Below are positions 27 to 58,284 of a DNA stretch of 64,000 nt, piece after piece. Within the stretch, counting starts at the first letter, position 1; the number at the start of each line of letters is the position of its first letter. This stretch comes from a virus (Duplodnaviria > Caudoviricetes): positions 352,001 to 416,000 of IMG/VR virus record IMGVR_UViG_3300037247_001786; one strand, written 5' to 3'. A model generated the notes under the pieces. The model saw only the letters and a program-made list of their open reading frames with translations, was not told the origin of the DNA and did not search any database. The position numbers were made by a program, and so were the translations under genes.

Positions 27-2567
27 TTGCCAGGTGGAGAGATGACAAATAGTTTGGCAATACATTACCTCGCCTATCATAGAAATGAAATAAGTGAAGA
101 ACAATTGAAAAGAGTTGAAGCTCTTACCGAGGATACAGATTTGCCCACTGATGAAGAATTAAAAGTCCCGAAAGGATCAGAAGGCTATAGTACAAAAGCT
201 GTAATAGACTCGATATACCCTCCACCTGATGAAGACTATTCAGTTGGTTTTAAAAATAGAGGAATGGGTAGGGGCGATTTTTGTGTCATGTCTAGAAATG
301 GAGAGGTCATAGCAGAAATAATTACAAACGAAAAGGCGGAAGAGAATGCTAATTTTATAGCTAAGGCTTGTAACGCATATGCAAAAAAGGAAGAAAAATA
401 AGATGGATAAAAAAGAGCTAAAAGAAGAGTTAAATAGAAGCCAAAAGATAGTTGAAGGTTTTAGGAAACAAGACAGCGATGCCCTCAGATACGGTAAGCA
501 GATAGCAAAAAGAATGATCGAAAGATATCGAGCGGTGCCTTTCGAGGCACATGGGAAAAAATATCATGATAAAGGAGGACTGCAAACTGATCATGTTTCA
601 AATGTTCTGTCTGAAATACTTTATCAGTGTTATAGTGAAGACAGAAAATGCGGGTGCCAAGAACTTCTTATGGAATGGATAATGGATAAATTCTGGGGCA
701 AAATAGTAATGGAATATATCCCTACATTTAGAGAGGTATGGCAATATTTACATGATAATAAATTTAATAAAAGAAGTAATGCTCTTTCCTACGGAGATGC
801 CGATGCAAGTATTTGGGTAGAATACCCGAAACAATTAAATGCATGGGAAGATAAAAGAAAAGTTGTTATACATAAATCTCATTGTAGCTGTTCGAAAAAC
901 AATACTCATATATTTATTTATGATGAAGATGGTCTTCCAGTTTGCAGGGGAAAGTTTAATGTCAGGACGGTTTGGAATAGAGAAGTTAATAGGGGAAACC
1001 ATTGGGGCGATGATAGGGATATTGAAGTCCCCTCTCTTAGTACCTATAGAAAAAGAAATTTTGAGTATAGCTATGGGGACGGTAGAGATAAAGGATATGC
1101 ATTAAGGCTCGACGATACATCTACACCAAGAGTAGAGTGGTCGATGCTTTATCAAAAAGAGATAGAACATGCCTTATATTTGATTAGTGCGATGAAAAGA
1201 GCGAAGGAAGAAAATGAATCCATTTAAATGTCCCAAATGCGGAAGTCAAAAACTTACAGTTAGTGAAAAATACCGATATAGTAGATATTTTCGATTAGAA
1301 GATAATATGTTATTTGGATTAACTGAACCAAAATGCGAAACTGCTCTTGAGACTTGGATTGATTGTAGCGACTGTAGGGAATTATCAGGTTACAGAGATG
1401 GACCCGGCCCAACAGAATGGATTGCAAACGAAGAAGAGAAAAAAATAATTTGGGATATGCTAGATAAGGCAAGTGAACCAGTTGATGTTTCTGAATTTTT
1501 AGAAAAGGAAGAAGAATGAAAATTATACCAAAAGAAGAGATTAAAAATGACGATTACTATGGAGAGATAGTCGAAACTCTTGACCTATGCGGTTTGAATC
1601 CCATATATATAGAAGATGAAAATGGCACATATAGATTTCAATCTAATTCTATTGTTAGATATCTTGTAGGTAGTAGCAGCCTTAATCTTATATGGGGCGA
1701 GGCTGGTGAAAAAGAATATTCTTTGAGAGAGTTTTTAGAACTATATATTCATATGGGGTATTCACTTGGAGGCTATCTCGAAATTTTTGGAGAGGCAATA
1801 GATAAGATATTAAGGATCAGTTATGACTACCATACGGGAGATCGTACTTCAAAACTGGGATATGATGAGGAGTCTATTAAGTTTTTTGATAAACCAGTAT
1901 ACGAGAGTAAGTAATGATATATCTACCAGAATTACCAATCAGTGTTAAGCATATGGTACAGAACTATAATGCTTGGATAGTAGGCAGTGCCGCTGATCCA
2001 AGTTCTACAATAAAACAAGTTAAAGACATAGACGTTATAATTTCTTTCAGTCTATGGAATAAAGTTGTAGGATTGATACCGGAAAATGCTACTAAGAATA
2101 ACTATGGAGGTTGGAAGTACGGTGATAACGGAAAGATAATAGATGTATGGCCAGATGAATTAAATCATTTTATGAGTTCTGATATGCCAAAATATTTATG
2201 GCAACCAAGATATAATATAAGATATGTAAAAAATAATTATTAAGGAGAAAATATGACACCAAAAGAAACAAGAAAAGAATTCGATATGCAAATAAAAGGG
2301 ATGCAAGTAATGATAATAGACAAGATAGAAGCATCTCTCACAGACGATATATTGATACTAGAAGAAGAGAAAAAAGTAGAAATAAATATAGATAGTATGG
2401 TAAGATGTAGTTTCAGTTCGAATATAAGAAACCTGTACAATAAGCGAAGAGCTGATACCATTGAATTTCTTAAAGAAACATATCAGAATCAAGAATGGGA
2501 AGTTGAGCAAAAGTTAACATCCCAAACTGGAGATGAGATAGCTCTTATTTTCAGTATCAAAAAATAA
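27..2567 (+). other. Run of closely packed hypothetical phage-type CDSs (27-401, 379-1227, 1214-1519, 1516-1914, 2253-2567)
   Basis: Abutting or overlapping + strand ORFs, several with upstream GGAG/GAGG sites; no recognisable family. Confidence 0.7.
1914..2243 (+). CDS. Small nucleotidyltransferase-fold (pol beta superfamily) protein
   Basis: AWIVGSAADP...KDIDVII and IDVWPD match the GS-x(n)-DxD plus third Asp signature. Confidence 0.55.
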   Translation: MIYLPELPISVKHMVQNYNAWIVGSAADPSSTIKQVKDIDVIISFSLWNKVVGLIPENATKNNYGGWKYGDNGKIIDVWPDELNHFMSSDMPKYLWQPRYNIRYVKNNY

Positions 2568-14934: not shown

Positions 14935-15627
14935 GGAAAACAAAAGTTATTAAAGCCTCTCCAGCAGCACTCGAACAAAGGATAGATACTTGGATAAAAT
15001 GTAACCCAAGAGCAGAAATAATTAGAACAAGTGCTGCAGCCATAAATGAATACAATGTTCTATATGTGATAATATATGAAGAAAAACCAATATAACACCG
15101 ATACCTCAAATAATTTGCCAGAGTGGTAAAAAATGGAATTTATAAGAATATGAAATATAATACTTGTCAAAATCATAAAACTCCTGACCAAATAGAAAAA
15201 GAAGATCATCGCTCTATATATCAAAAAAGATGCCTACTGTCTATAGGAGATAAAATAAAGGCTACTACCGAATTTAGAAAAGTAATGATTGGCTCATATA
15301 GACCAAAAGAACCTGTATTCGAGGGTGGCAAAATCATAGAGTTTAAAGATCCATACGACTCAGATGGAAAAACAGCACACTCATTGGCAAATGTAGAAAT
15401 GCCTTGCGGTTGTACACATCGTATCAATACAGCTTGGCTTGTCAAAATCTAACCCTTTTTCGCGAGAAATAAAAATCCCCATTAATAACCCAAAAATCCA
15501 TATAAACTACAATATACACAAGATTAATATATAATGACTACAATACTTAATATAATAGCAACTATAATATATGGACTAATCATATTTAGCGAACACATAT
15601 ATATAAAGATAACACAAAGATAACAAT

Positions 15628-15858
15628 ATGAAGAATAAATTCACATGAGGACACGCTAACGACGAATCCAACATAAGACTAAATGGAGAACACTATCTCG
15701 AAATATCTAACTATGGACATACAAAAGAAGTAATAGATAGAGTAGAACATATCACCGAACTACTAAACCAAACAACAACTGCTGATGTAATACCAGAGCC
15801 TCCACAACCTCCACCAAAGAGAGTAATCATAGAGGGAGTAAAGATAATACAAGAATAA
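15628..15858 (+). pseudogene. ORF interrupted by in-frame TGA at codon 7
   Basis: ATG AAG AAT AAA TTC ACA TGA GGA CAC..., then the frame stays open 69 more codons to TAA. Confidence 0.4.
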
Positions 15859-16242
15859 CAAACAAAGCACAGATCAAACCACAGGGCTTATACCCCCTTA
15901 TCAGAATACCAGTTAATAGCTCAAAAATCAACTATGGCAATCAATAGGGAAAATAATGGAACTAAGTGGTACAGAGTGGTGTAAAAGGGTGAAAAACCCC
16001 ATTATTACCCAAAAACCCAATTAGAGGTCAAAAACCCAATAAATATTGCTCACAAACCTATAACCCAAATATAATAAGAAAAATGCTTATTATTGATACA
16101 CAAGCACCAAATAGGAATATCTTTAAATAATTCTCATCGACCGATCTCGATAAACCGACTCTATTTACCCTTAATATAATAATAAGAATTATTTTTATTC
16201 CTTATATAAAAGTAATGATACACCTTATATCAAGTACTATGG

Positions 16243-16470
16243 CACTCTTTGTCATATTTGCCAGAGTGACAAAAAAACTGTTGTCTGGTATAAGTTGTTT
16301 TCAGTTGCACCAAGTTATTACCACTCTGGCAGTTATTTGATACAATTATTTGCCAGAGTGTGAAAAAACACTTCTTATATATGTAGCAGTCATATATTTT
16401 GTTAAAAACTGTCACTCTGGCACTGTATGGGTCATATTTATTTGCCAGAGTGGTAAAAAGTGCTTTTTAT
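16243..16470. repeat. Three units of inverted box pairs with 92-bp period; candidate replication origin
   Basis: Forward boxes at 16258/16350/16442, reverse CACTCTGGCA at 16322/16413, partial reverse CACTCT at 16243; coincides with compositional skew flip. Confidence 0.7.
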
Positions 16471-18513: not shown

Positions 18514-18882
18514 ATGAGTGATTCTATTCAGGATAGTTATCAAGATGGTCATGAATCTTATTATGACGATATATTAAGATATAAGAATCCTTATAGTGGA
18601 TTGGAGTCTGAGTCTTGGTTTCGTGGTTGGGATGAAGCTGAAGAGTATCATCGGTTATTCACTGATAATCAGACCTTCAGGGATCAGATTAAAGAGTTAA
18701 AAGAAGAGATAAAAGAGTTAGAAGATAGTGTTAGTGGGTTCAAGAAAAGTATGATCCAGATTAATACAAATATATTATCTTCTATAGATCACATAAGAAA
18801 GAGTAAGTTTCTTTATTTTCACCGCGAAAAATTGGTATCTAAGCTTAAAAATATAAATTTGCCAGAGTGTGAAAAAAGCTAA
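18514..18882 (+). CDS. Protein with RMF-like N-terminal motif and a coiled coil
   Basis: YQDG...NPY.....SWFRGWDEA resembles the ribosome modulation factor motif; IKELKEEIKELE heptads. Confidence 0.45.
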   Translation: MSDSIQDSYQDGHESYYDDILRYKNPYSGLESESWFRGWDEAEEYHRLFTDNQTFRDQIKELKEEIKELEDSVSGFKKSMIQINTNILSSIDHIRKSKFLYFHREKLVSKLKNINLPECEKS

Positions 18883-32056: not shown

Positions 32057-32638
32057 ATGGACCTATTTATACAAAATATGGATAAGATAGAAAAGATAGC
32101 TGAAAAGATGGTAAATTATTGGCATGGGAAATTTGAAGTCGAAGAATTGATAGATACTGCTTATATTAAGTATCGTACAGCTATCGAGAATAATCCCTCA
32201 TTAGTGGATAGTGTTTTTTCTAATCTAACAACTTTTTTATGGCGTGTAAAAAATGATATGAAGGATTATATAAAAAAACAAACTGGGATAAGAACAAAAG
32301 AAAAGAAAAAAATGCTTGCTAACACTATTACTCATTCTTTTCAACGTCCAGATGACGATAACGGCAATCACGGTTGCATATCTTTCTTTGAACCTCAAAG
32401 TATTGACAAAGGTCAGGAAAGTGTGGACAATTGTGAACTTCTTAATGAAATTTTTAAAAAAGTAGAATTAACTGATAGAGAGTGGAAAGTTATACAGGGC
32501 TATTTTTGGGAAGGAAAAACAACTAAAGAAGTGGGTATAGAACTTGGGTCTGCCGATAAAAATGCTTCTGGAACAACTTGTAATATAAAAAATAAGATAG
32601 TAAAAAAACTTCAAAAACAAGCGTTATTATTGGTGTAA
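32057..32638 (+). CDS. sigma70-family sigma factor-like protein 1
   Basis: Region-2-like IEKIAEKM...EELIDTAY...FLWRVKNDMKDYIKK; region-4-like LTDREWKVIQGYFWEGKTTKEVGIELG. Confidence 0.75.
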   Translation: MDLFIQNMDKIEKIAEKMVNYWHGKFEVEELIDTAYIKYRTAIENNPSLVDSVFSNLTTFLWRVKNDMKDYIKKQTGIRTKEKKKMLANTITHSFQRPDDDNGNHGCISFFEPQSIDKGQESVDNCELLNEIFKKVELTDREWKVIQGYFWEGKTTKEVGIELGSADKNASGTTCNIKNKIVKKLQKQALLLV

Positions 32639-32640
32639 AT

Positions 32641-33204
32641 ATGGATTTCTTTTTTGAACATTTAAAAGGCATACAACAGATGGCTCGTAAGATTTGCAGG
32701 TCTTATCATGGCAAGTACGAGGTAGATGAATTGATAAATGTAGCCTGGATGGATTATCAAGTAATGATAGAAAAGTATCCTTTTTGGACAAGGAGTTACC
32801 GTTATCCCGAATTAATTCTTTATAAAAGAGTCAGATATGATATGTTAAATTATATCAGATATGATCTAAAATTAAAGAAAAAAAAGATATTAGAGAAAAA
32901 TGGTTCTCACGTTCCACTGTTTATTAGTTATAATGCAGAGGATAAAGATGGGGAAAAGTTATCTTCTTTCACAGGTTCGTATTCTGATAAAGGTTTTGAC
33001 AAAGTCGATAATCTTGAGTTATTAGAATATCTTAGAACTCGCATGGGATTAACTGATAGAGAGTGGAAGATACTTAAATATTATTTTTATAATGGGTACA
33101 CAGACAGATTAATTGCCGAAAAAATAAATATATCAAAATCAAGGGTATCGCAGTTAAGAAATCAAGCTCTCAAAAAATGTAAGGAACACTTAATAGGAGT
33201 ATAA
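32641..33204 (+). CDS. sigma70-family sigma factor-like protein 2
   Basis: DELINVAW...YKRVRYDMLNYIR; LTDREWKILKYYFYNGYTDRLIAEKINISKSRVSQLRNQALKK region 4 HTH. Confidence 0.85.
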   Translation: MDFFFEHLKGIQQMARKICRSYHGKYEVDELINVAWMDYQVMIEKYPFWTRSYRYPELILYKRVRYDMLNYIRYDLKLKKKKILEKNGSHVPLFISYNAEDKDGEKLSSFTGSYSDKGFDKVDNLELLEYLRTRMGLTDREWKILKYYFYNGYTDRLIAEKINISKSRVSQLRNQALKKCKEHLIGV

Positions 33205-33871: not shown

Positions 33872-33903
33872 AAAGAGAGAGGCACTATGTCTCTCTTTTT
33901 TTT
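33872..33903 (+). terminator. Terminator closing the tRNA cluster
   Basis: AAAGAGAGAGGCA-CTATG-TCTCTCTTTT followed by T run. Confidence 0.75.
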
Positions 33904-34977
33904 CGCGAAAAATAATTGCCAGAGTGTGAAAAAATAGGATTTATGATATTATGAAAAAGATATTAAGTAAAGTAGAATTGAAATTTGGTAGCGACTCTAT
34001 CATAGATGGGAACCATCTATCTATAGATATCAACTTATTCGAAATTACATTAACTGACGATTCTATAGTATATAACGTTGGAATAAATTTTCTTAGTAGT
34101 CAAACTATTAAGAGTTTGTTAAAATTAGAAGATTATAGTTGTACAGATATGAAAGAAGCATTTAAGAGATTCCGACAACTACATACTTCTTTAAAAGTAC
34201 TATTCGAAAATATGGAGATAGAAAGGTAGAATAATGTATTTATGTAAAATATCAAAAAGAGAAGTATGTAGGAATGGTAATTGCAAGGACACGGTAGTAC
34301 ATGAGCTTGTGTCTTGTAGTAGCTCTCTTCTTCCAGGAAATGCAAAAAAGTGGGTTAAGAAACATTTCTCATCAGCATATAAGAACCATGTAATGAGTAC
34401 TTTCCATGCGGTTCCTGGATTTAAAGCATTGAATATATCTAACGATGATGGTAGTCCTCATAATACATATAATGGGAGAGCTACTATGTTTGATGAGTAT
34501 GGTCGTCCAGTATATATAATTGCTATTGATGTATATGCAGTTGAAGTAGTCAATTAATTTATAACGGGAAATATTATGAATGAACAAGATGATCTAGTAT
34601 TAGAAGAGATGTTAACATGAAAGTCTTTATTACAAGAGATGAAGATAGCGACGAAATATGGTTGTGGCTTAAGCCCCGCAAGGGTTCATTTAAACCAGTA
34701 ACTCTCGAAGGTTGTGATATGATCAATTTTCAACGAAGAGACAATATGAATGAAATAGATAAGTATTGTGGCTATACTAAATCTGATTTTAAAAAGAAAT
34801 TTGGAGTTCCTCTTATTAATAAGAAAACTTGCAAAAGTATCGACTTGCCAGATGATTTAGTTCTAGACAATAAATTAACATTAAGTCCTCTGATTTTTGA
34901 CTAATTTGCCAGAGTGTGATTTTTTTGATATTATGATATTGTTGAAACGAATATTATTATTATAAAAGGAATTAAGC

Positions 34978-37297: not shown

Positions 37298-38680
37298 ATG
37301 AACACTAAATTAACACTAACACTTATTGCAGTAGTTGTTATTATCGGTATTTTAGCATCGTTTTCAAGCGGTCTTGTCGGTAAGAACGAAGCTACCAACT
37401 GGCAGATCAAGCAGTCTATTGGCGGTAAAGTAACAATTCAGGATAAACCTGGGTATTATGTCAAGGCATTCGCTACTGTAACCACTTATCCTCGTTATGT
37501 CTCACAGCGTTGGAATGATGTGGTTGGCGATGGCGTCAATAATATCGAATCTATTCGCACCACTTTTAATGATGGCGGCACTGCTCAGATTTCGACTGAT
37601 ATTAGGTTCGCAACACCGAGTAACGAAGAAACTCGTAAAGTTTTCCATCAACAGTTTGGCGGAAATATCGAGAATGCTGTTATCGCTGTTAAGTCTCACT
37701 TGACAAACTGTATCAAAGCAAGTGGACCACTTATGTCGGCATCAGAGAATCAAGCGGCTCGTAAGGCTGAATTTACTCAGCTTGTTGAAAACCAGACAGC
37801 AGAAGGCTTGTATGGTATGGAACGTATCGAAAAGTATATCGAACTTCCTCAATCAGCCGATCAGATCGAAGCTGGCATACCACCTCGCACCGAAGCAGTT
37901 ACAGCAACAAGATTGATTTTTGACAACAACGGAATGCCAGTAGTTGCTAAAGTTTCTCCTTTGAAGACTTATGGTATCACAATTCTCCAGTTCTCAATTA
38001 CAAGTACCGTCTATGACGACGAGACTTTGGAACAGTTTGCTGCTAAGAAAGAATCTTTCCTCGCTGCCGAGAAGTCAAAGGCTGATAAGATTAAGTTTGC
38101 TCAAGCCGAAATGTCAACTGTTGCCGAGTATGCTCAAAAGATTGCCGTCGAAAAAGGTTTGGCTGATATGGAAAAGATGAAGCAGACTACTGACGCCGCG
38201 AGAGACAAAGAACTTGCCGAGATCGACGCTGCTAAAAAAGTAGCTGTTGCAGAATTTGCAAAGACCGAAGCCGAGACAGTTGCTAATATGGCATTGGCTG
38301 TTGCGGCTATCAAAAAAGAAGAGGCTTTAACTGTCGCTAATATGGGTCTTGAAGTAGCCACTATCGACGCTGACGCTGCGGAACAGAAAAAGATTGCTGT
38401 TATCGCCGAAGCCGAAGGTAAGGAAAAGGCTATTGAACTTTCTGGAGCAATTACCGAGAGAGAAGAAGTATTGGCAAGAATCCTCGCCGATAAGGATGTT
38501 CAAGTCGCATTGGCTTTGAAAGACATCAAGGCTCCATCTTTCGTTGTAACTGGCGGAAGCGGTAACGGCGGAGGTTTGCAAGGCACGATGGTTGGCATTG
38601 CTATTATGAAGGCTGCAGGAGTACTTCCAGCAAACTTTAGCATTGACAATCCGATGACATCTGTTCCAGTAGTAAAGTAA
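37298..38680 (+). CDS. SPFH/prohibitin/flotillin-like membrane protein with long Ala/Glu/Lys coiled coil
   Basis: N-terminal TM helix, SPFH-like core ending GITILQFSITS, then AE-rich heptads. Confidence 0.75.
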   Translation: MNTKLTLTLIAVVVIIGILASFSSGLVGKNEATNWQIKQSIGGKVTIQDKPGYYVKAFATVTTYPRYVSQRWNDVVGDGVNNIESIRTTFNDGGTAQISTDIRFATPSNEETRKVFHQQFGGNIENAVIAVKSHLTNCIKASGPLMSASENQAARKAEFTQLVENQTAEGLYGMERIEKYIELPQSADQIEAGIPPRTEAVTATRLIFDNNGMPVVAKVSPLKTYGITILQFSITSTVYDDETLEQFAAKKESFLAAEKSKADKIKFAQAEMSTVAEYAQKIAVEKGLADMEKMKQTTDAARDKELAEIDAAKKVAVAEFAKTEAETVANMALAVAAIKKEEALTVANMGLEVATIDADAAEQKKIAVIAEAEGKEKAIELSGAITEREEVLARILADKDVQVALALKDIKAPSFVVTGGSGNGGGLQGTMVGIAIMKAAGVLPANFSIDNPMTSVPVVK

Positions 38681-38814: not shown

Positions 38815-39654
38815 TTGAGGATAGTTATTATGAAAAAGCCACTTGGAATCATACTCTATAAGGGTAAATCTGTTATAGATGGTAAACTTATTGTAGTTGT
38901 TGCTACAGGTTTTGCCGGTAAATCAAGCAATGAGAAAACTGGAGATATGATTCAAACATGGATTTTAAGACCCGATGTACCTCCTATTATGGCAATCAAA
39001 ACAGGACATGATTTCTCTGTTTGTGGGGATTGTAAACACAAACATATCGGCTCTTGTTATGTCAACGTCGCTCACGGACCCCACAATGTTTTCTATGCCT
39101 ATCAAAACGATAGGTATGTACGGTTCGATATAGACAAGCATTCTAAACTGTTTGAAGGTCGATCAATTAGATTAGGCTCATACGGTGACCCCGCAGCAGT
39201 ACCCACTCATATATGGGAAACGGTTTGCGGTCTTACAATCGCACACACGGGTTACACGCACCAATGGAATACAAGGTTTGTAAAACCCGAATTAAAGAAT
39301 TTCTGTATGGCAAGTTGCGACAATGAAAAAGAGCAAGTAAAAGCCAAAAGTTTAGGTTGGCGTACTTTTAGAGTTAGAACAGATGTAGACCAGCCTTTAC
39401 TTGAAAACGAATTTGTATGTCCTGCAAGTATGGAATATGGACAGAAAACCTCTTGTATCAAATGCAAGGCTTGTATGGGTTTAGGAGCTAACACCAAAAA
39501 AGACCCTGTTATAGTTGTTCACGGATTAGATCATAAGATAAAGAAGTTCAACAAAGGCATGAAACTTATAGCATGGAAAGAAAAATATAGAAAAGAGTTT
39601 GATTATCCGCTTAAAAAGAAAAAAAAGCGGAAAAGAGTAATTGCCAGAGTGTAA
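38815..39654 (+). CDS. Cys-rich conserved phage protein, possibly Fe-S/radical-SAM-like
   Basis: NEKTGDMIQTWIL, VCGDC...CYV, IRLGSYGDPAAVP, GYTHQW, CPAS...CIKCKAC. Confidence 0.5.
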   Translation: MRIVIMKKPLGIILYKGKSVIDGKLIVVVATGFAGKSSNEKTGDMIQTWILRPDVPPIMAIKTGHDFSVCGDCKHKHIGSCYVNVAHGPHNVFYAYQNDRYVRFDIDKHSKLFEGRSIRLGSYGDPAAVPTHIWETVCGLTIAHTGYTHQWNTRFVKPELKNFCMASCDNEKEQVKAKSLGWRTFRVRTDVDQPLLENEFVCPASMEYGQKTSCIKCKACMGLGANTKKDPVIVVHGLDHKIKKFNKGMKLIAWKEKYRKEFDYPLKKKKKRKRVIARV

Positions 39655-39704: not shown

Positions 39705-41834
39705 ATGCATAGCTTTATTGGTATTATTACCTATGGACAGAACATAGGAGAAGCAAGAGACAAGGCAAAGAAACTATCAGACGCTATGATAGGTGAAGTA
39801 GCATACCCTTTTGACTATGGTGGGACTAGTGGCGAAACAATGTTGTTCTCTTCTCAAAAAGGAGTTAAACTTGTCGGTCAAGCTATGGAAGCGACAAAGA
39901 AACATTTCCTATATGCTATAAATATGGTGAGAGAACATCTTGAAAAATTCACAAATGAAGATATAGCCAAGAGTGAAAATATAGTATATGACGAAAAAGA
40001 TACTACATATAATACTGGTATGGCTAGACATTGGATGTTTAAAGCTGGACAGTATAAAGGAGGAGAAATCTGCTTATACGATAACGACGGAGAAGGTATT
40101 AGAACTCCAGAACATTTAGACAGAGTCTTGAAGCAATGGGATAAGCCGGTATCTGGAGAAAAGATATATGTCACTCCATTTAATATGCATTTCTAATTTG
40201 CCAGAGTGACAAAAATATAAACTTATAGAAGTGTTAATACTAACACTGAATAGGAGTTGTAAAATGCCATTGGGTAAAGTAATATATTTTCAGAAAAATC
40301 TTGATACGGAAGTAAAAGTCGCTATCATTATTAAAGAGGAATATGATCATGAGGGGGTATGGGGTCATATCGCTTGCGAACTTGATCATAGTCCAGATGA
40401 GGAAGAGATTAGAGTAGCAAGTGTTGACAGGAATGTTATTATTCCTTTTCCGAAAAATGAGGAAATAGATAAAAATCTAAAATACTATAAAGAAGCTAAA
40501 CATTTTCTTGATAGATTGGTGGATTTTGACACTATGTCAAAGGACGAGATAATAGCTGTATGCGATATGACAGCGATAATTGCAAGACAAGAACTTTAAT
40601 GGAGATAGAATTATGAGTTATGAAACGAGTGCTAGTTACGCTGACACGGTAGAAATCGATTTTGTTAAGGCTCAATGTCCTGAAGAGTGGGAAAAATTTA
40701 ATCTTGCTTTGTTAGCTGGGGAAATTGATTTTGATGCTTTTTGTCAATGCACTTCTATTGAGGATGAATTAGATGCAGATGAGCCAGAAGCCAAAGCGAT
40801 TGATGAAGCATATGAAGCTCTTCAAGATGCTTTTAGGATAAAAGTGGCTCTTACTCTTAATATAGTCTATAACGAAAAAGACGACAGAGGTGATGAATTA
40901 GAGGGAGGCTCCTTTGCCGTCGATGGGGTTTGGGTTCTTTCCGAGGGTGGAAGAAATCATAAAGATAGTATTGAAAGACTATTTTGGACTAATGGCGGAT
41001 AATATGATATATCATATAAAACAATATGGTAGGATAACTGTTACTCATATAGATAGGGAGATGATCTCAGAAGAAGATATAAAAGAGATTACTCTTAAAC
41101 TAGTAAAAAAAGCTAAAGAAGCTATTAAAAAGAGTAAAATGGTTAGTGGTGCTTTTGATGTAGAAGTATGTCAAACTAACGGAGAAGTAGTTGATAGTTT
41201 TTTAAGCGGAACTTACTAATTTGCCAGAGTGGTAAAAAAAGAAAGTTATAGTAATATGAAAGCATACGATAAAAAAGAAAAGTTTCCCGAACATTGGAAG
41301 AGCGTAAGAATATTAGGAGAGATGTGTGTTGATATTGCTACTCATAGTATTTTAGGGGTAGAGTATAAATCCGATAAGAGGGCTGGTAGATATGGTTTAA
41401 GACTATCAGATAAAGATATTTTCGAGTTCTATAATCCTCATAATGACGGAGTTATGAGTCATGGGGGTACAAAGTTGGATGCTGTAATAGGAGCCGAATG
41501 TGTCTATCTAAACCACTTCATCTTTGAAAATGAAAACGAATTGTGGGCATGGGTAGCAGAGTGGGGGGGACTTACTCATTTGCAAGATATACTTGAATTA
41601 GAGGAAAAGAAAACCAAAAACAAAGAGATTCTATTCCATAATATATCCTATACTCTTAAAGATACAGATTTAGATATAGACTTTATGGAAGTAGAACAGA
41701 TTGAATATATGATAGGGCAAGGTTTCAGCGAGGGAGAACTGTCTATGACAGACCCAGATAATCCAGAAGAGACTTTTATGGGTTATTGGAAAATAGATAA
41801 CATTTGCCAGAGTTGTAAAAAAAGTATTTTATAG
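39705..41834 (+). other. Box-headed units of small hypothetical CDSs
   Basis: ORFs ending 40196, 40599, 41002, 41219 and 41834, delimited by boxes at 39641, 40198, 41221 and 41804. Confidence 0.7.
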
Positions 41835-51698: not shown

Positions 51699-53022
51699 AG
51701 GATAAAATTATGGGTGCAAATTTTGATTATCAAGTACTAAAAGACCAGAAACTCGAATTGACAGATGAAGAAATCGAGAAACATGCAGAAGAACTGTTTG
51801 AGCATTCTGCTTATCTTTATGGGCACGCTGGATATTCTGGTACGTTAGCTGAAAAGACTGGTGAAGGGGTTACTATCCATAGAGATAAGACTTTTGAAAC
51901 GGATGAGGAAGCGAGTAAATATGTTCTTGATACTCTTGATAACGACAAATGGGGTCCAGCGGATGTAGTCCCTATTGAGGGTAGAGGTTGGTTTATTGGT
52001 GGATGGTGTTCATCTTAATTCTTATTGGAGATATATTATGATGGCTATGGCTTTTATAAAATTTATGTTTGTAGTATTCTTGTTAGTAGGTTTCCTATCA
52101 CTGATACTCTCTATATTGGAGTATTTTGGAGAACATATTACTCCTTTCCATAAGAAATATACTTTTGGAGCATGTGCGGTATCATGGCTTATGGTTATTT
52201 CTCTTGCATTGGCATCAGGGGCATAACTTGCCAGAGTGGTAAAAAAACAGTCTTATAGAAGTGTTAATAATAACACTGAATAGGAGTATAAAATGGGAAA
52301 AGTAAAACCTACAAAAGAAGTAAAATGTCGTTGCGGTAAAAACTCTATTGTCGAGTTAATTCCAGCAGAAGGATATGTAAGGGTCACTCCTTTCATGTGC
52401 GATTGCGGTAGAACATTCCTTATCAGCGATTACGTTAATGCCATGACTACATATGGAGAGGTAGAACATAAACAATATGATGAATTTCTTGAAATGCAAA
52501 AAAAAGATGCGACAAGGAAAAAAGTAAGAGATACATCGGATGAAGGACGTAGAAAATATCAATTAGTAGACAAGTGGTTAAATAGCCTATCAATAGATGC
52601 TATAAGTAGAATTGAGGCTCAAAGAGTCTTTACCCAAACTATTGATAAAGAGTTTGTTATCGAAACTATTCTTGAACATTGTCGATATGAAGATGATTTA
52701 TTGGAGAGATTATATGGACAATATCTGGCATGTAATGCTATCTCTATGATGACTACGGATAAAAGAGAGTGGTTTATACTAAAAATGGTAGGTTGCGTAG
52801 AACCAGTATTAGTAGGTCCAATTTCTACAGAAATAGAAATGAAAGAGCGTTTGGAGAAGTATGCAGATGACCCTAAAGAGAGTCAGAACTCTCATACTTA
52901 TTTTTCCGCAAAAAAAGATGCAGATATAAGATTTTAGTATTTGCCAGAGTGGTAAAAAAATAGTCTTATAGAGTTGTAAAGTTAATGTTATAAATTCGAT
53001 TGGAGAAACAAATGGACGGTTT

Positions 53023-53812
53023 AATGATTGACACAAAAGACAGCGGTATCGTAACAATAGAAAGAGCATTTTCTATTCCTGTTCCCGAAGAAACAAAGAC
53101 GTACAAGCCTGTCGGTAATGAGGCTCTTTGGAAAATGCTCCAGAGAACTGCCAATGTAAGAGGGCTGGAGTTAGGTACTCCTGAAATGGGACTCGCTCAA
53201 AAGGGACAGCGACTTTTTGGTCAAGTCGAGATTGTCAATCAAGACCATCTTGATAACGAAGTTCGTTTGATGCTTGGTTTCCGTAACAGCTATAACCGAT
53301 CGATGTCAGTCGGAATCTGTTTCGGAAGTAAAGTTTTTGTATGTTCTAATATGTGTTTTACGGGATATACTTCTGAAGATGAGGATGCGGTAGGTCAAGT
53401 TCATCATCGTCATCAAGCAAATGTATGGGAAGGGCTGCAAGAACGACTTAATGAGGCTTTGGATAAGTTCGAGGTATTCAAGAGCTATCAGAACGACTTT
53501 TACAGTAAGCTGAAAGAAAACGAGTTAACGGATGCGGAAGCCCATGATTTGATTATCAATTCAGTTCGGCATGAAGCAATTACGGCTAAAGATTGTTTCA
53601 CAGTTGCCGAAGAATGGGCGTTCCAGAATAGAGGCCCGCAAGATGATAGCGAAGAAGATAGATGGCATAAAGAATTCCTGCCCAGAAACGCTTGGAGCCT
53701 CTTCAATGCTTATACCGAGATACATAAGGGATTTCAGATAAAGAACCCCCTTGAAGCGAATTTGAGGTCTATCAAGATGAATAAGTTCTTTCATAACCAG
53801 TTTATGAGTTAA
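53023..53812 (+). CDS. DUF932-like protein
   Basis: LMLGFRNSYNRSMS...GSKVFVCSN...HRH...NAWSLFNAYTE; start taken at the first ATG. Confidence 0.75.
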
Positions 53813-53816
53813 GACA

Positions 53817-53853
53817 AAGAAGGGGAAGGACATCGAAAGTTCTTCCCCTTTTT
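53817..53853 (+). terminator. Rho-independent terminator
   Basis: AAAGAAGGGGAAGGAC-ATCGAAA-GTTCTTCCCCTTTTT. Confidence 0.8.
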
Positions 53854-55405: not shown

Positions 55406-56140
55406 ATGAGAAAAATAATGAGCGATGATAACACTGTTTGGGATGAACGGAAAACAGATTTTACTGAACCATTGAGGAAAAAATCGGATGGTAAGCGATC
55501 AGCAGTTGCGGGGATTATTGTCCTATTAGGGATTATCTTGATATTTGGTATATGCTTTGTAGTGTCACGGATTACGACGGTTCAAGATGATCAATGGGCT
55601 GTTCGGCAACATATGAATGGGGATATAGAGGTTATAGAAGGTCCAGGAGTTTATCTTCCCTTGTTTAGCAAAATATGGATATATCCTCTTAAAATAACAG
55701 TTGAATATAAAACAACCGCTTATTTTAACGATACTGAGGCAAGAGAGGTGAAAACGCTCTGCCGAGTAGAATTACCCGAAGATAATACTGATAGAGTATC
55801 TCTTCATAAAGGACTTTCAGGAGACATATTTAATGTATATCCAATAGTTAGGGCTGCTGTTGGCAATTCGATTAAATCAATTGCCCCTATTATGAGTACA
55901 AATGAGATTGTCTATCACCGCAGAGCGGAATTTTGCGAATTAGTATATCGTCAATTAAAAGAAGGTCTTTTTCTCCAACATAGTTCTAGTAAAATCATTG
56001 ACGGTAAAAACGTCCTTATGTCTACAATCCAAAAGGATGAAAACGGAGACTATATCCCTATGAGCGACGCTATATTAGAGAGAATGGGATTGAATGTATC
56101 GCTTTTTAGCATCACCTCAATAGGCGATTTGCCAGAGTGA
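55406..56140 (+). CDS. Second SPFH-domain protein, lacking the coiled coil
   Basis: Aligns by eye with 37298-38680 (WAVRQHMNGDIEVIEGPGVY vs WQIKQSIGGKVTIQDKPGYY; RRAEF..LV..Q..EGL); ends in box-encoded LPE-stop. Confidence 0.7.
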   Translation: MRKIMSDDNTVWDERKTDFTEPLRKKSDGKRSAVAGIIVLLGIILIFGICFVVSRITTVQDDQWAVRQHMNGDIEVIEGPGVYLPLFSKIWIYPLKITVEYKTTAYFNDTEAREVKTLCRVELPEDNTDRVSLHKGLSGDIFNVYPIVRAAVGNSIKSIAPIMSTNEIVYHRRAEFCELVYRQLKEGLFLQHSSSKIIDGKNVLMSTIQKDENGDYIPMSDAILERMGLNVSLFSITSIGDLPE

Positions 56141-58284
56141 CAAAAAAATAGTCTTATAGTATTATGAAGCCGAAAAAAGAAAAACATATTACTTCGAGAG
56201 TTAGGAAAGAGAACAAGACAGATAGAGGCGATCTACATACAAAGGTCATACCTGATAAAAAGAAAAAAGTGAATAAAGAAAAATGTCGAGGAAAGATAGA
56301 AGAAAATGAATGAAAAACTTTTCCCATTCCAGGTGAGCGAACCCCGCAAAATGACTATATTAGAACAAGTTTTTTGTATGGTTTATCTTGCGACCAGTAA
56401 AACTCTAAAAGAATTGAGACGATACCAGTCTTTAGTTGAAAAACAATTTATTTTAGCTACTCAAAATAATTGTGGGGAAAAATCATTCAAAAATTTAGAG
56501 GCGATGCAACACTGTTATGATGCTGCCGTAGCTTATCAACAATTCGATGATGATTTCTGGTTAGCTTTTATAGATACATCTGATAGAACCTAAAATGGTT
56601 TGGATTATTTGCCAGAGTAGTAAAAATTTAATTTTATAGAAGTGTTAATAATACTTTTAAGGAAAAGAAAATGATTGAAGTTACTACTAATGAACCGATG
56701 GTTATAGAAGTAAGACATATAATGCACAAACATTTCGAGATTGAAGTTAAAATTGACAATCAGCCTCATGATCTCAGCATTTCGATTATATCGGAAGAAG
56801 ATGAAGAAGGGGAAGATACGGAGTTGGTTCGTATCAGAGTTGACGATAGGACTTTCACCGTTGGAGAAAAAGAAGATGTTGCAGAGAAACTTAACGGACA
56901 TCTTGGAGTCTGGTTCGATAGTAAATATCCTTTGTATCAGGTAGAAAAAACTAAAGAAACTCTTGACGATGTTTTTGATACTATTTGGGAATATCTCGAA
57001 GAAAAAGACCTATGCTAATTTGCCAGAGTGAAGAAAAACTAAGGTTATATCATTATGAAACATGCAAACATAGACAATAGACTAATGAGTAATGGGGCGG
57101 TAGCGTTCAAAGAGGGATTAGGTTGGTTCGGACTGCACCACATAGGAGACCCTACTCCGTCAATATTGGGGGCACAGGTATGGAGACATCTACAAGAAGA
57201 TATACATTATCTGAAAAGTATCAGAAAGAGGTTACTCGCTTATAAATCTTGGGATGAATATATTAACGATGGACTTTGTCCCTATTGCGGTAAATATGAT
57301 AAGGGGATGCCGGTCGCAATTCATCCCGAATTATATAGCAAGACAAACCAGATAGGGCTATATCTACCTGACCCAGAAGCAACAGACTCAAAGACAACGC
57401 TCGCTACTGACCCAGAAGCGAAACAGCATAAACATATTAAACACAGGAATCTTATATCTGCTGATAATGCTAAAGAAGATGGAGTTTTCATAGAATGGGT
57501 ATATGTTATAGACCCTTTAAGTTATGAATTAAATATACTGAAATCTGTTAGAGGAGAAGGCACCCACGTTCAATCTGTATTCGGAGGAATGAAACTATAT
57601 AACTATCAATATATTTCAGTAAGAAAATGTGAACTTCTTCGGAAAGAACAATCTTGGGAGCCTGATTGGGAAGAAATAGAAGAAAAAGGTAAAAAATTGG
57701 CGACAGGATTTTACCATAAATATACGAGGCAGGCAAAATGAAAGGCAAAACATATAATAGTATAATATTGGGTATTGGAATAACAACTGTGATTTTCGCT
57801 CTTCTAACTATCCTTAATCATTTTTTTCTTATACCTGCTGTTGTAGGACTATTATGTATGTTGGGTTTCGGTTTTACGTTTCAATATGATATAGATGATG
57901 AAGACTATCTTTAAGGAGAATTAAAATAATGTTTATTGAGATAATAAGAGAAGCAAAAGATAGGCTATATAGTAATTATTGGAGATTTATGATATCCACA
58001 GATACTCCAAAAATAAAAGTAACTTTATGGGAATTTCGTAAAAGAAGTAGAAGAACTACTAGATGCCAGTGGGTATCAGAACATACTTACACTTCGTTAG
58101 ATAGGAGACATAATAACCTCAAAAAGGGAGATTTTATAATTCCAGAAGATGTGGATAAAGAATTGAAAGAGAAGTTAAATAAGATGGTATCAGAGATTGA
58201 AGTAGAAATAAGATAATTTGCCAGAGTGGGTAAAAATCTAATTTATAGTATTGTAAAGAATAATATAATACTGGAGTTAAAACG

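What the first reader, a model, noticed from the sequence alone, without database searches (positions are those of the whole stretch)
55406..56140. Genes run into the next box and borrow their stop codon from it; an SPFH paralogue is cut exactly there
Seen: TTG CCA GAG TGA/TAG supplies an LPE-stop terminus for ORFs ending 56140, 59799, 60143, 62103 and 63996 (TPE-stop at 61710). Others read through the box in the same or other frames (LPECEK at 18882 and 44717; ARV at 39654 and 51698; CQS at 41834, 47816 and 59411). The 55406 SPFH protein aligns with the 460-aa SPFH at 37298 up to FSITS, then ends GDLPE-stop, missing the whole coiled coil. Inference: recombination or insertion at the box trims gene 3' ends, a footprint of cassette shuffling. 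Selection for genome compaction is the alternative.
Basis: partly seen in the sequence, partly recalled or inferred. Interest (0 to 1): 0.7.

Follow-up and report, generated by a model that had tools for sequence, protein, structure and literature searches.

The report
Genes overlapping repeated megaphage promoter boxes
In a 461-kb marine-sediment phage, about 70 near-identical promoter-like boxes sit directly against the ends of the genes before them, so some proteins end in box-encoded residues (LPE-stop). This is mostly tight packing. Relatives also show gene cassettes swapped between boxes and, now and then, a protein tail lost at a box, much as in T4-type phages.

Summary
TTGCCAGAGTG occurs 55 times in the window (0.54 expected) and about 73 times in a 60-kb one-directional block of a 461-kb phage.

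The box is the -35-like part of a roughly 45-nt phage-specific promoter-like element with sigma-70 geometry and a non-canonical -10. ATG sits exactly at element position 36 in 15 copies. Genes are packed against it: of 55 scorable upstream genes, 29 stop within 8 nt of the box, 16-20 read into it, and 6 stop further upstream. Reading frames are used evenly (p=0.70) and the in-box stop is not enriched (p=0.27), so "borrowing" a stop is a by-product of packing.

Related phages carry their own box variants, and orthologues end at the same junction with variant tails (LPEK*, FPEE*, FPEVKKRNPM*). The overlap is therefore old, not a fresh scar. Two LPE proteins are full length.

The short SPFH, however, lacks the 32-115-aa tail that all its orthologues have. 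A relative's gene is cut inside a zinc ribbon exactly at a CCAGA box-core match. Cassettes between boxes are inserted, lost and permuted among relatives.

The parts
55406..56140 (+). Short SPFH-fold gene (244 aa, P0001): N-terminal helix 28-54, SPFH domain 57-240, then IGD-LPE-stop; the last 3 codons and the stop lie in the next box
56127..56170 (+). Promoter-like element after the SPFH gene: box 56129-56139, A-run, TTATAG at +26, and ATG of a 49-codon ORF exactly at element position 36 (56164)
37298..38680 (+). Long SPFH paralogue (460 aa) with coiled-coil tail; its orthologue (474 aa) sits in the same gene order in relative L113
53852..55341 (+). Inserted block with boxes at 53852, 54019, 54994 and 55331 plus small ORFs/RNAs. 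It separates the 266-aa gene 53012-53812 from the SPFH gene; these two are adjacent in relatives L110, L113 and L112
   Evidence: earlier notes e1-5376726 and e1-5376694 read part of it as small RNAs (not tested here)
59446..59799 (+). LPE-ending gene (117 aa). Full length by homologues; a 96%-identical strain ends FPEVKKRNPM because its box variant lacks the +9 stop
59853..60143 (+). LPE-ending gene (96 aa, stop TAG in box variant GAGTAG). The same junction is kept in strain L124 (ends DFPEE-stop)
61507..61710 (+). TPE-ending gene (67 aa) reading into the degenerate box ACGCCAGAGTGA at 61699
61765..62103 (+). LPE-ending gene (112 aa). Its homologue P0141 ends within one residue of the same point, with TAG abutting its own box, so this protein is full length
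63706..63996 (+). LPE-ending gene (96 aa). The family has a variable C-terminus: a 45-aa Cys-rich extension in 2 of 6 homologues, and a cut inside that extension at a box in relative L114
15115..63995 (+). In-window part of the array of about 73 promoter-like boxes (53 + strand copies here), one before nearly every gene or small operon and before some tRNA genes
32057..33204 (+). Two paralogous genes (193 and 187 aa) with a sigma-70 region 4 domain, behind box 31997. They are candidate readers of a phage promoter class (inference)

Best explanation
The box is the upstream (-35-like) half of a roughly 45-nt phage-specific promoter-like element. The element is repeated before almost every gene of a 60-kb one-directional, cassette-rich block of a 461-kb phage. 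No spacer is kept between a gene and the next element, so the upstream stop codon either abuts the box or falls inside it. In the second case the last residues of the protein are simply what the box spells in that frame: LPE-stop, CQS..., or ARV....

These tails follow the promoter, not the protein. They change with each relative's box variant. The overlap is old and stable for several genes.

On top of this packing, the identical boxes are the places where cassettes are inserted, lost and reordered between related phages, as with the PeSLs of T4-type phages. Occasionally a gene loses a C-terminal module so that its new end is the box. The short SPFH protein lost its coiled-coil tail, and a relative's gene lost its zinc ribbon. 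The likely route is recombination between a real box and a box-like CCAGA inside the coding sequence.

Shown: the repeat, its geometry, the packing, the conserved junctions, the cassette differences and the shorter proteins. Inferred: promoter activity, the start site at position 36, and the recombination mechanism.
For: Repeat and geometry:
- 55 copies against 0.54 expected; about 73 copies, + strand only, in one 60-kb block.
- The conserved element runs from -2 to about +40: TTGCCAGAGTG, an A-run, then TTATAG.
- ATG sits at element position 36 in 15 of 72 copies, against 0-2 at any neighbouring position. SD-led starts cluster at positions 61-78.
- Boxes also precede tRNA genes.
- The phage encodes a sigma-70-family protein and two region-4 proteins.

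Packing:
- 29 of 55 upstream genes stop at -8..-1, and 16-20 read in.
- The same pattern holds in relatives L113 and L110. In L113, all three kinds of stop codon occur at -4.

Tails follow the box:
- The SPFH orthologue ends ALPEK-stop in boxes of L084 and L085.
- L113 keeps the same frame open to LPEK-stop behind a TAG.
- Strain L124 ends FPEVKKRNPM-stop and DFPEE-stop for genes 59446 and 59853.

Cassette turnover.

Loss of tails:
- All 131 homologues extend beyond the end of P0001. Orthologue tails are 32-115 aa.
- The L114 allele ends KTPE-stop where a full-length allele reads KTVPEN, encoded ...GTT CCA GAA....

Other:
- Neighbouring boxes are more alike than distant ones (0.532 vs 0.478, permutation p<0.0005).
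- The PeSL precedent is described in PMC2839356 and PMC4122927.
Against: - There is no transcript evidence. No RNA run holds this DNA, so promoter activity and the start site are inferred.
- The -10-like hexamer T(C/T)TTAT lacks the A at position 2 that sigma-70 promoters need. A consensus scan picks up only one box in 8 kb.
- No stem-loop or terminator part was found, unlike PeSLs.
- The microhomology route rests on one clear junction (L114) and one loose one. In SPFH orthologues the Pro codon lies one residue off and reads CCT, not CCA.
- Loss of the SPFH tail could equally be an ordinary in-frame deletion in a low-complexity coiled coil.
- Relatives are known only from 1-21-kb pieces, so no breakpoint was mapped at base resolution between close genomes.
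Confidence: 0.7

Rival explanations
1. Pure compaction. The boxes are promoters, genes have simply been squeezed against them, and the boxes play no part in recombination. Cassette differences and shortened proteins arose by ordinary, box-independent indels.
For: Stops abut or overlap the box in about 49 of 55 genes, and likewise in relatives. Frames are used evenly and the +9 stop is not enriched. Two LPE proteins are full length. Gene/box junctions are conserved over about 30% protein identity.
Against: Every variable cassette seen between conserved anchors carries its own box. The L114 truncation junction falls exactly on a CCAGA match. Adjacent boxes are more alike than distant ones. A 461-kb genome with 1.5-kb insertions of tiny ORFs and RNAs is not obviously short of space.
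Confidence: 0.2
2. The box is a mobile element (MITE-like, or a promoter-carrying insertion) that lands in the 3' ends of genes and truncates them.
For: The copies are near-identical and numerous. Some proteins end in the box with a missing C-terminal part.
Against: All copies point the same way as the genes and lie at a fixed distance from start codons. Conservation stops at -4 and about +45, with no inverted ends or target duplications visible in the profile. Self-BLAST finds only the 75-105-nt box-plus-leader unit. Each related phage has its own uniform variant at orthologous junctions, which fits co-evolution with a reader protein rather than transposition. An IS605-type TnpB gene was seen only in relative L114, and none was noted in the parts of the window scanned.
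Confidence: 0.05
3. The boxes are not promoters but binding sites or RNA signals of another kind, such as operators, processing sites or packaging-related repeats. The gene overlaps would then have nothing to do with transcription starts.
For: The 11-nt block is invariant, far more so than usual -35 elements. The -10-like part is non-canonical.
Against: The strict orientation, one copy per gene or operon, ATG at position 36 in 15 copies, SD-led starts 25-42 nt later and a position directly before tRNA genes are what a promoter predicts.
Confidence: 0.05

Closest known systems
PeSLs (promoter-early stem-loops) of T4-type phages (Arbiol et al. 2010, PMC2839356; Comeau et al. 2014, PMC4122927)
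   Same: A repeated promoter motif is concentrated in plastic regions, mostly before small genes of unknown function. [quoted passage not shown] Insertions, deletions and replacements between related phages are bounded by the motifs (for the papers; here).
   Different: PeSLs match the host sigma-70 consensus and include a terminator stem-loop. Here the -10-like part is non-canonical, the 11-nt upstream block is invariant and differs between related phages, and no stem-loop or terminator was found. The host phage is a 461-kb marine-sediment phage, not a T4-type one. Mini-circles could not be tested.
   Same: A phage-specific box replaces the -35 element at about -30 and is read with a phage-encoded factor.
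   Different: No MotA or AsiA homologue was sought or shown here. The -10 part is not sigma-70-like. This is a resemblance only.
SPFH/Band 7 proteins (HflK/C, prohibitin, flotillin, stomatin, erlin)
   Same: P0001 has an N-terminal helix and the SPFH fold. Its homologues hit Pfam Band_7.
   Different: In the solved SPFH assemblies the C-terminal coiled coil builds the ring or cage wall (titles; the role is from my own knowledge). P0001 ends five residues after the SPFH domain.

Membership tests
PeSL-type mobile regulatory cassettes (T4-type phages) | Repeated promoter motif concentrated in a plastic region, upstream of small ORFan genes | tested here: met
   About 73 copies in one 60-kb block, one per gene or operon; most genes have no Pfam or PHROG family
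PeSL-type mobile regulatory cassettes (T4-type phages) | Motif matches the host sigma-70 consensus (-35 and -10) | tested here: not met
   TTGCCA with a 17-bp spacer fits, but the hexamer T(C/T)TTAT lacks A at position 2. The consensus scan finds one box in 8 kb, no more than in shuffles
PeSL-type mobile regulatory cassettes (T4-type phages) | Stem-loop acting as terminator or attenuator within the motif | tested here: not met
   Leaders fold no better than shuffles; terminator-like sites number 3 against 3.4 expected
PeSL-type mobile regulatory cassettes (T4-type phages) | Indels, replacements and reordering between related phages bounded by the motifs | tested here: met
   A 1.5-kb four-box insertion between conserved neighbours; interleaved and permuted cassettes in L114 and L124. 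Breakpoints are resolved to the cassette, not to the base
PeSL-type mobile regulatory cassettes (T4-type phages) | Motif-to-motif recombination products (mini-circles) | not testable with these tools
   Only assembled contigs of other samples could be laid; the joints seen there are short-sided and ambiguous
SPFH / Band 7 proteins | SPFH fold | tested here: met
   AF2 model pLDDT 85.9; the top 29 Foldseek hits are SPFH proteins at probability 1.00. Band_7 hit in 11 of 15 aligned homologues, but not in P0001 itself
SPFH / Band 7 proteins | C-terminal coiled coil that builds the oligomeric ring or cage | tested here: not met
   The protein ends at residue 244, five residues after the last SPFH strand. 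Orthologues carry 32-115 further residues and distant homologues about 200
Sigma-70-type promoter | Transcription starts about 7 nt after the -10 hexamer | not testable with these tools
   No RNA run holds the DNA. Indirect support comes from ATG at position 36 in 15 copies and a purine there in 71 of 72
MITE / insertion element | Terminal inverted repeats and target-site duplications; either orientation | tested here: not met
   The conservation profile shows no repeated ends or duplications. All but the 16.3-kb array copies share the genes' orientation

The most novel reading that the evidence does not exclude
The promoter boxes are recombination substrates as well as promoters. Because their core (CCAGA) can pair with chance matches inside coding sequence, they would repeatedly clip C-terminal modules off proteins and fuse what remains to a ready-made stop and the next promoter. 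This would be a systematic way of editing protein tails and swapping cassettes in the early block of a clade of huge marine-sediment phages.
Probability: 0.3. Interest if true: 0.5.

Novelty: new variant of a known kind. Interest (0 to 1): 0.38.

Why it matters
Huge phages carry long blocks of small unknown genes, and how those blocks are built and rebuilt is poorly understood. This window is a clean natural example. One phage-specific promoter-like element is repeated about 70 times, each related phage has its own version, and the genes are packed so tightly that promoter sequence is also coding sequence. Where the two conflict, the promoter wins: the protein tails change with the box variant.

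The case extends the PeSL idea from T4-type phages to an unrelated group with a different kind of promoter. It also gives two concrete cases of domain loss at a box. One is an SPFH protein without the coiled coil that known SPFH cages need, which is a simple target for asking what a tail-less SPFH does beside its full-length paralogue.

For annotation there is a practical lesson. The C-terminal LPE, CQS and ARV tails in this phage group are promoter-encoded and should not be read as protein motifs.

Tried and rejected
- Megablast of 14 kb against GenBank phages gave no match.
- IMG/VR scans found no related contig. The scan for relatives of P0001 found none. The scans for the box and for the relatives' box variant gave only single, chance-like matches. 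Relatives were reached only through protein look-ups.
- Records behind L110 and L113 are not held, so their full contigs could not be scanned.
- No RNA holder is listed for this DNA, so expression and start sites could not be examined.
- I laid contigs of four marine metagenomes on 20 kb. There were many joints, and some had ends in boxes (55155 to 52941; 62109 to 60156). They come from 200-400-nt contigs at 80% likeness with short sides, and the boxes are repeats, so I do not count them.
- I asked whether the 49-codon Lys-rich ORF after box 56129 is a displaced remnant of the SPFH tail. It is not: the same ORF follows a box in strain L124 as a cassette of its own.
- I asked whether LPE is a functional C-terminal tag. 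I rejected this because the tail changes with the box variant in orthologues.
- I asked whether the element carries stops in all three frames by design. It does not: frame 1 has one in 38 of 72 copies, frame 2 in about 61 of 72, and frame 3 only in some.
- Rfam finds nothing in 34-64 kb.
- Pfam and PHROGs give nothing for most of the read-in genes.

Full report
WHAT IS THERE

The window is bases 352,001-416,000 of a complete 460,978-bp virus record with direct terminal repeats. The only run holding all of the sampled stretch is a marine-sediment metagenome, which may be the source of this DNA. TTGCCAGAGTG with up to 1 mismatch occurs 55 times in the window against 0.54 expected. In the whole genome about 73 copies lie on the + strand between 367 and 427.5 kb and almost nowhere else. 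Genes there all run the same way, and the block holds 33 tRNA genes.

A position profile of 72 copies shows that the conserved unit runs from about -2 to +40. It reads AT, then TTGCCAGAGTG (positions 3-10 invariant), an A-run at 14-19, TTAT at 26-29 (near-invariant), then AG, A33, T35, a purine at 36, T37 and AA.

TTGCCA, a 17-bp spacer and T(C/T)TTAT give sigma-70 geometry with a start at position 36. In line with that, ATG stands exactly at position 36 in 15 of 72 copies, 13 of them opening 42 to 228 codons. Any neighbouring position has 0-2 ATGs. The other genes have GGAG-led starts clustered at positions 61-78. One box ends 27 nt before tRNA-Phe, so the tRNA begins at element position 38.

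The hexamer lacks the A at position 2 that sigma-70 promoters need, and a consensus scan does not pick the boxes up. The phage encodes a 281-aa sigma-70-family protein elsewhere in the genome, and two sigma region-4 proteins at window 32057-33204. I read the element as a phage-specific promoter. That is inference, because no RNA data exist.

THE OBSERVATION

They follow from the frame in which a gene meets the box:
- TTG CCA GAG gives LPE, then TGA or TAG in 38 of 72 copies.
- T TGC CAG AGT gives CQS, running on to the TAG of TTATAG.
- TT GCC AGA GTG gives ARV.

Of 55 boxes with an upstream open frame of at least 60 codons, 29 have the stop at -8 to -1 (16 at exactly -4, 6 at -3), 16-20 are read into, and only 6 have a stop more than 8 nt upstream. 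Read-in frames are 8:5:7 (p=0.70). The +9 stop is present in 6 of 8 frame-1 read-ins against 32 of 64 other boxes (p=0.27). So nothing selects for borrowing a stop. What is unusual is that there is no spacer between gene and next promoter.

RELATIVES

No relative is in GenBank phages or IMG/VR. Protein look-ups did reach contigs of related phages, and each has its own uniform box variant:
- YTACCAGAGAAATGA...TTCTATGGGTA in L113, 22 copies in 21 kb.
- TTTCCAGACAAAGAAAAAAATACTTCTATGG in L110, 23-25 copies in 21 kb.
- TTACCAGAA(A/G)A(A/G)TGA in L084 and L085.
- nnTCCAGAG(T/G) in the closer relative L114.
- nnTCCAGAGGT in strain L124.

The core CCAGA and the TAT(A/G)G part are shared. In L113 and L110 stops again pile up at -4 or -3. 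In L113 they are TAA, TAG and TGA alike, so it is the stop as such, not a DNA motif, that sits there. Three L113 genes end LPEK-stop. In L110, whose box has no early frame-1 stop, genes that run in read through for 63-78 nt.

THE SPFH PAIR

The 244-aa protein and the 460-aa protein are 26% identical up to FSITS. Both match PHROG 11908, the short one over profile positions 7-242 of 430. The fold is SPFH.

The duplication is old. L113 has both a 474-aa orthologue of the long gene, in the same gene order, and a 359-aa orthologue of the short one.

An exhaustive search found 131 homologues, and all of them run past the end of P0001. The nearest ones (29-34% identity) are 255-359 aa long, and most others are 400-520 aa. 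In the alignment, the orthologues carry a charged tail of 32-115 aa after the SPFH domain, and several end in xPEK.

The DNA explains this ending. In L084 and L085 the gene ends GCT TTA CCA GAA AA(G/A) TGA inside the next box. In L112 it ends ATT CCA GAG AAA TAA. In L113 an in-frame TAG lies 18 codons before an open LPEK-stop in the box. In L110 a TAA abuts the box in the same frame. The gene has therefore ended in the box, in this frame, since before these phages diverged.

What is special here is that the tail between the domain and the box is gone. Two further differences go with it. The downstream neighbour differs: L113 and L085 share an 83-aa gene there (60% identity), and none of the relatives' neighbours occurs in this phage. 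And 1.5 kb with four boxes has been inserted upstream.

Orthologues have I-x-x-P-(A/D)-(E/D)-E at the domain/tail border, one residue off the LPE of P0001. A deletion between such a site and the terminal box is possible but not shown.

OTHER LPE GENES

- Gene 61765-62103: its only homologue ends within one residue of the same point, with TAG abutting its own box. It is full length.
- Gene 59446-59799: three homologues show the same body. A 96%-identical strain ends FPEVKKRNPM because its box reads TTT CCA GAG GTG AAA.... It is full length.
- Gene 59853-60143: strain L124 keeps the junction and ends DFPEE-stop.
- Gene 63706-63996: the family has a variable end. Two homologues carry a 45-aa Cys-rich extension and three end in short tails (two of them acidic). 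The L114 allele stops after the first CxxC as KTPE-stop in a box, where a full-length allele reads ...AAG ACC GTT CCA GAA AAT.... That junction on a CCAGA match is the clearest sign of box-mediated clipping.

CASSETTE TURNOVER

L114 shares genes with 54.4-64.9 kb of this block in the same order but with different cassettes between them. It then has homologues of 71604, 65629, 70349, 68040, 66170 and 75032 in that permuted order. L124 has the homologues of 56306 and 56671 in swapped order, a different gene in place of 57055, and no 59106 cassette.

Within this genome the only repeated DNA is the 75-105-nt box-plus-leader unit. Paralogues are few, and neighbouring boxes are more alike than distant ones.

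COMPARISON AND VERDICT

This is the pattern described for the PeSLs of T4-type phages (PMC2839356, PMC4122927). There are differences: the promoter is non-canonical and differs between related phages, no terminator stem-loop is present, and the phage group is different.

Its inference is partly right. Cassette shuffling at boxes is supported, and occasional trimming is real. Most LPE ends, however, reflect packing with an old, stable overlap.

Noticed in passing
window 62092-62370: After box 62092 comes a non-coding stretch of about 230 nt ending in a GC stem plus T-run. It is 82% conserved per column with contigs L123 and L114 and has no Rfam match, so it is a candidate small RNA cassette.
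   Followed up: partly
window 32057-33204: Two tandem paralogues (193 and 187 aa, 29% identical) each carry a sigma-70 region 4 domain, behind box 31997. A full 281-aa sigma-70-family gene lies at genome 47.3-48.1 kb.
   Followed up: partly
window 15115-16452: The box array begins with four forward and two reverse copies within 1.3 kb, about 92 nt apart at 16258-16452.
   Followed up: no
window positions 36-38 of 13 elements (e.g. 41256, 57055, 60682): Thirteen ORFs of 42-228 codons start with ATG exactly at the inferred transcription start and have no Shine-Dalgarno sequence. They are probably leaderless mRNAs.
   Followed up: partly
L113 11054-11150: The short SPFH orthologue of this relative has an in-frame TAG. 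Behind it the frame stays open for 18 codons (similar to the ends of P0007 and P0008) down to LPEK-stop in the box. This is either a recent nonsense mutation or read-through.
   Followed up: no
L114 2212-3357: An IS605-type OrfB/TnpB gene sits among the cassettes of the closer relative, at a place where this phage has other genes.
   Followed up: no
window 33890-33915, 62785-62808 and after 24372: A short palindrome TTTTCGCGAAAA recurs just upstream of some boxes. Its role is unknown.
   Followed up: no
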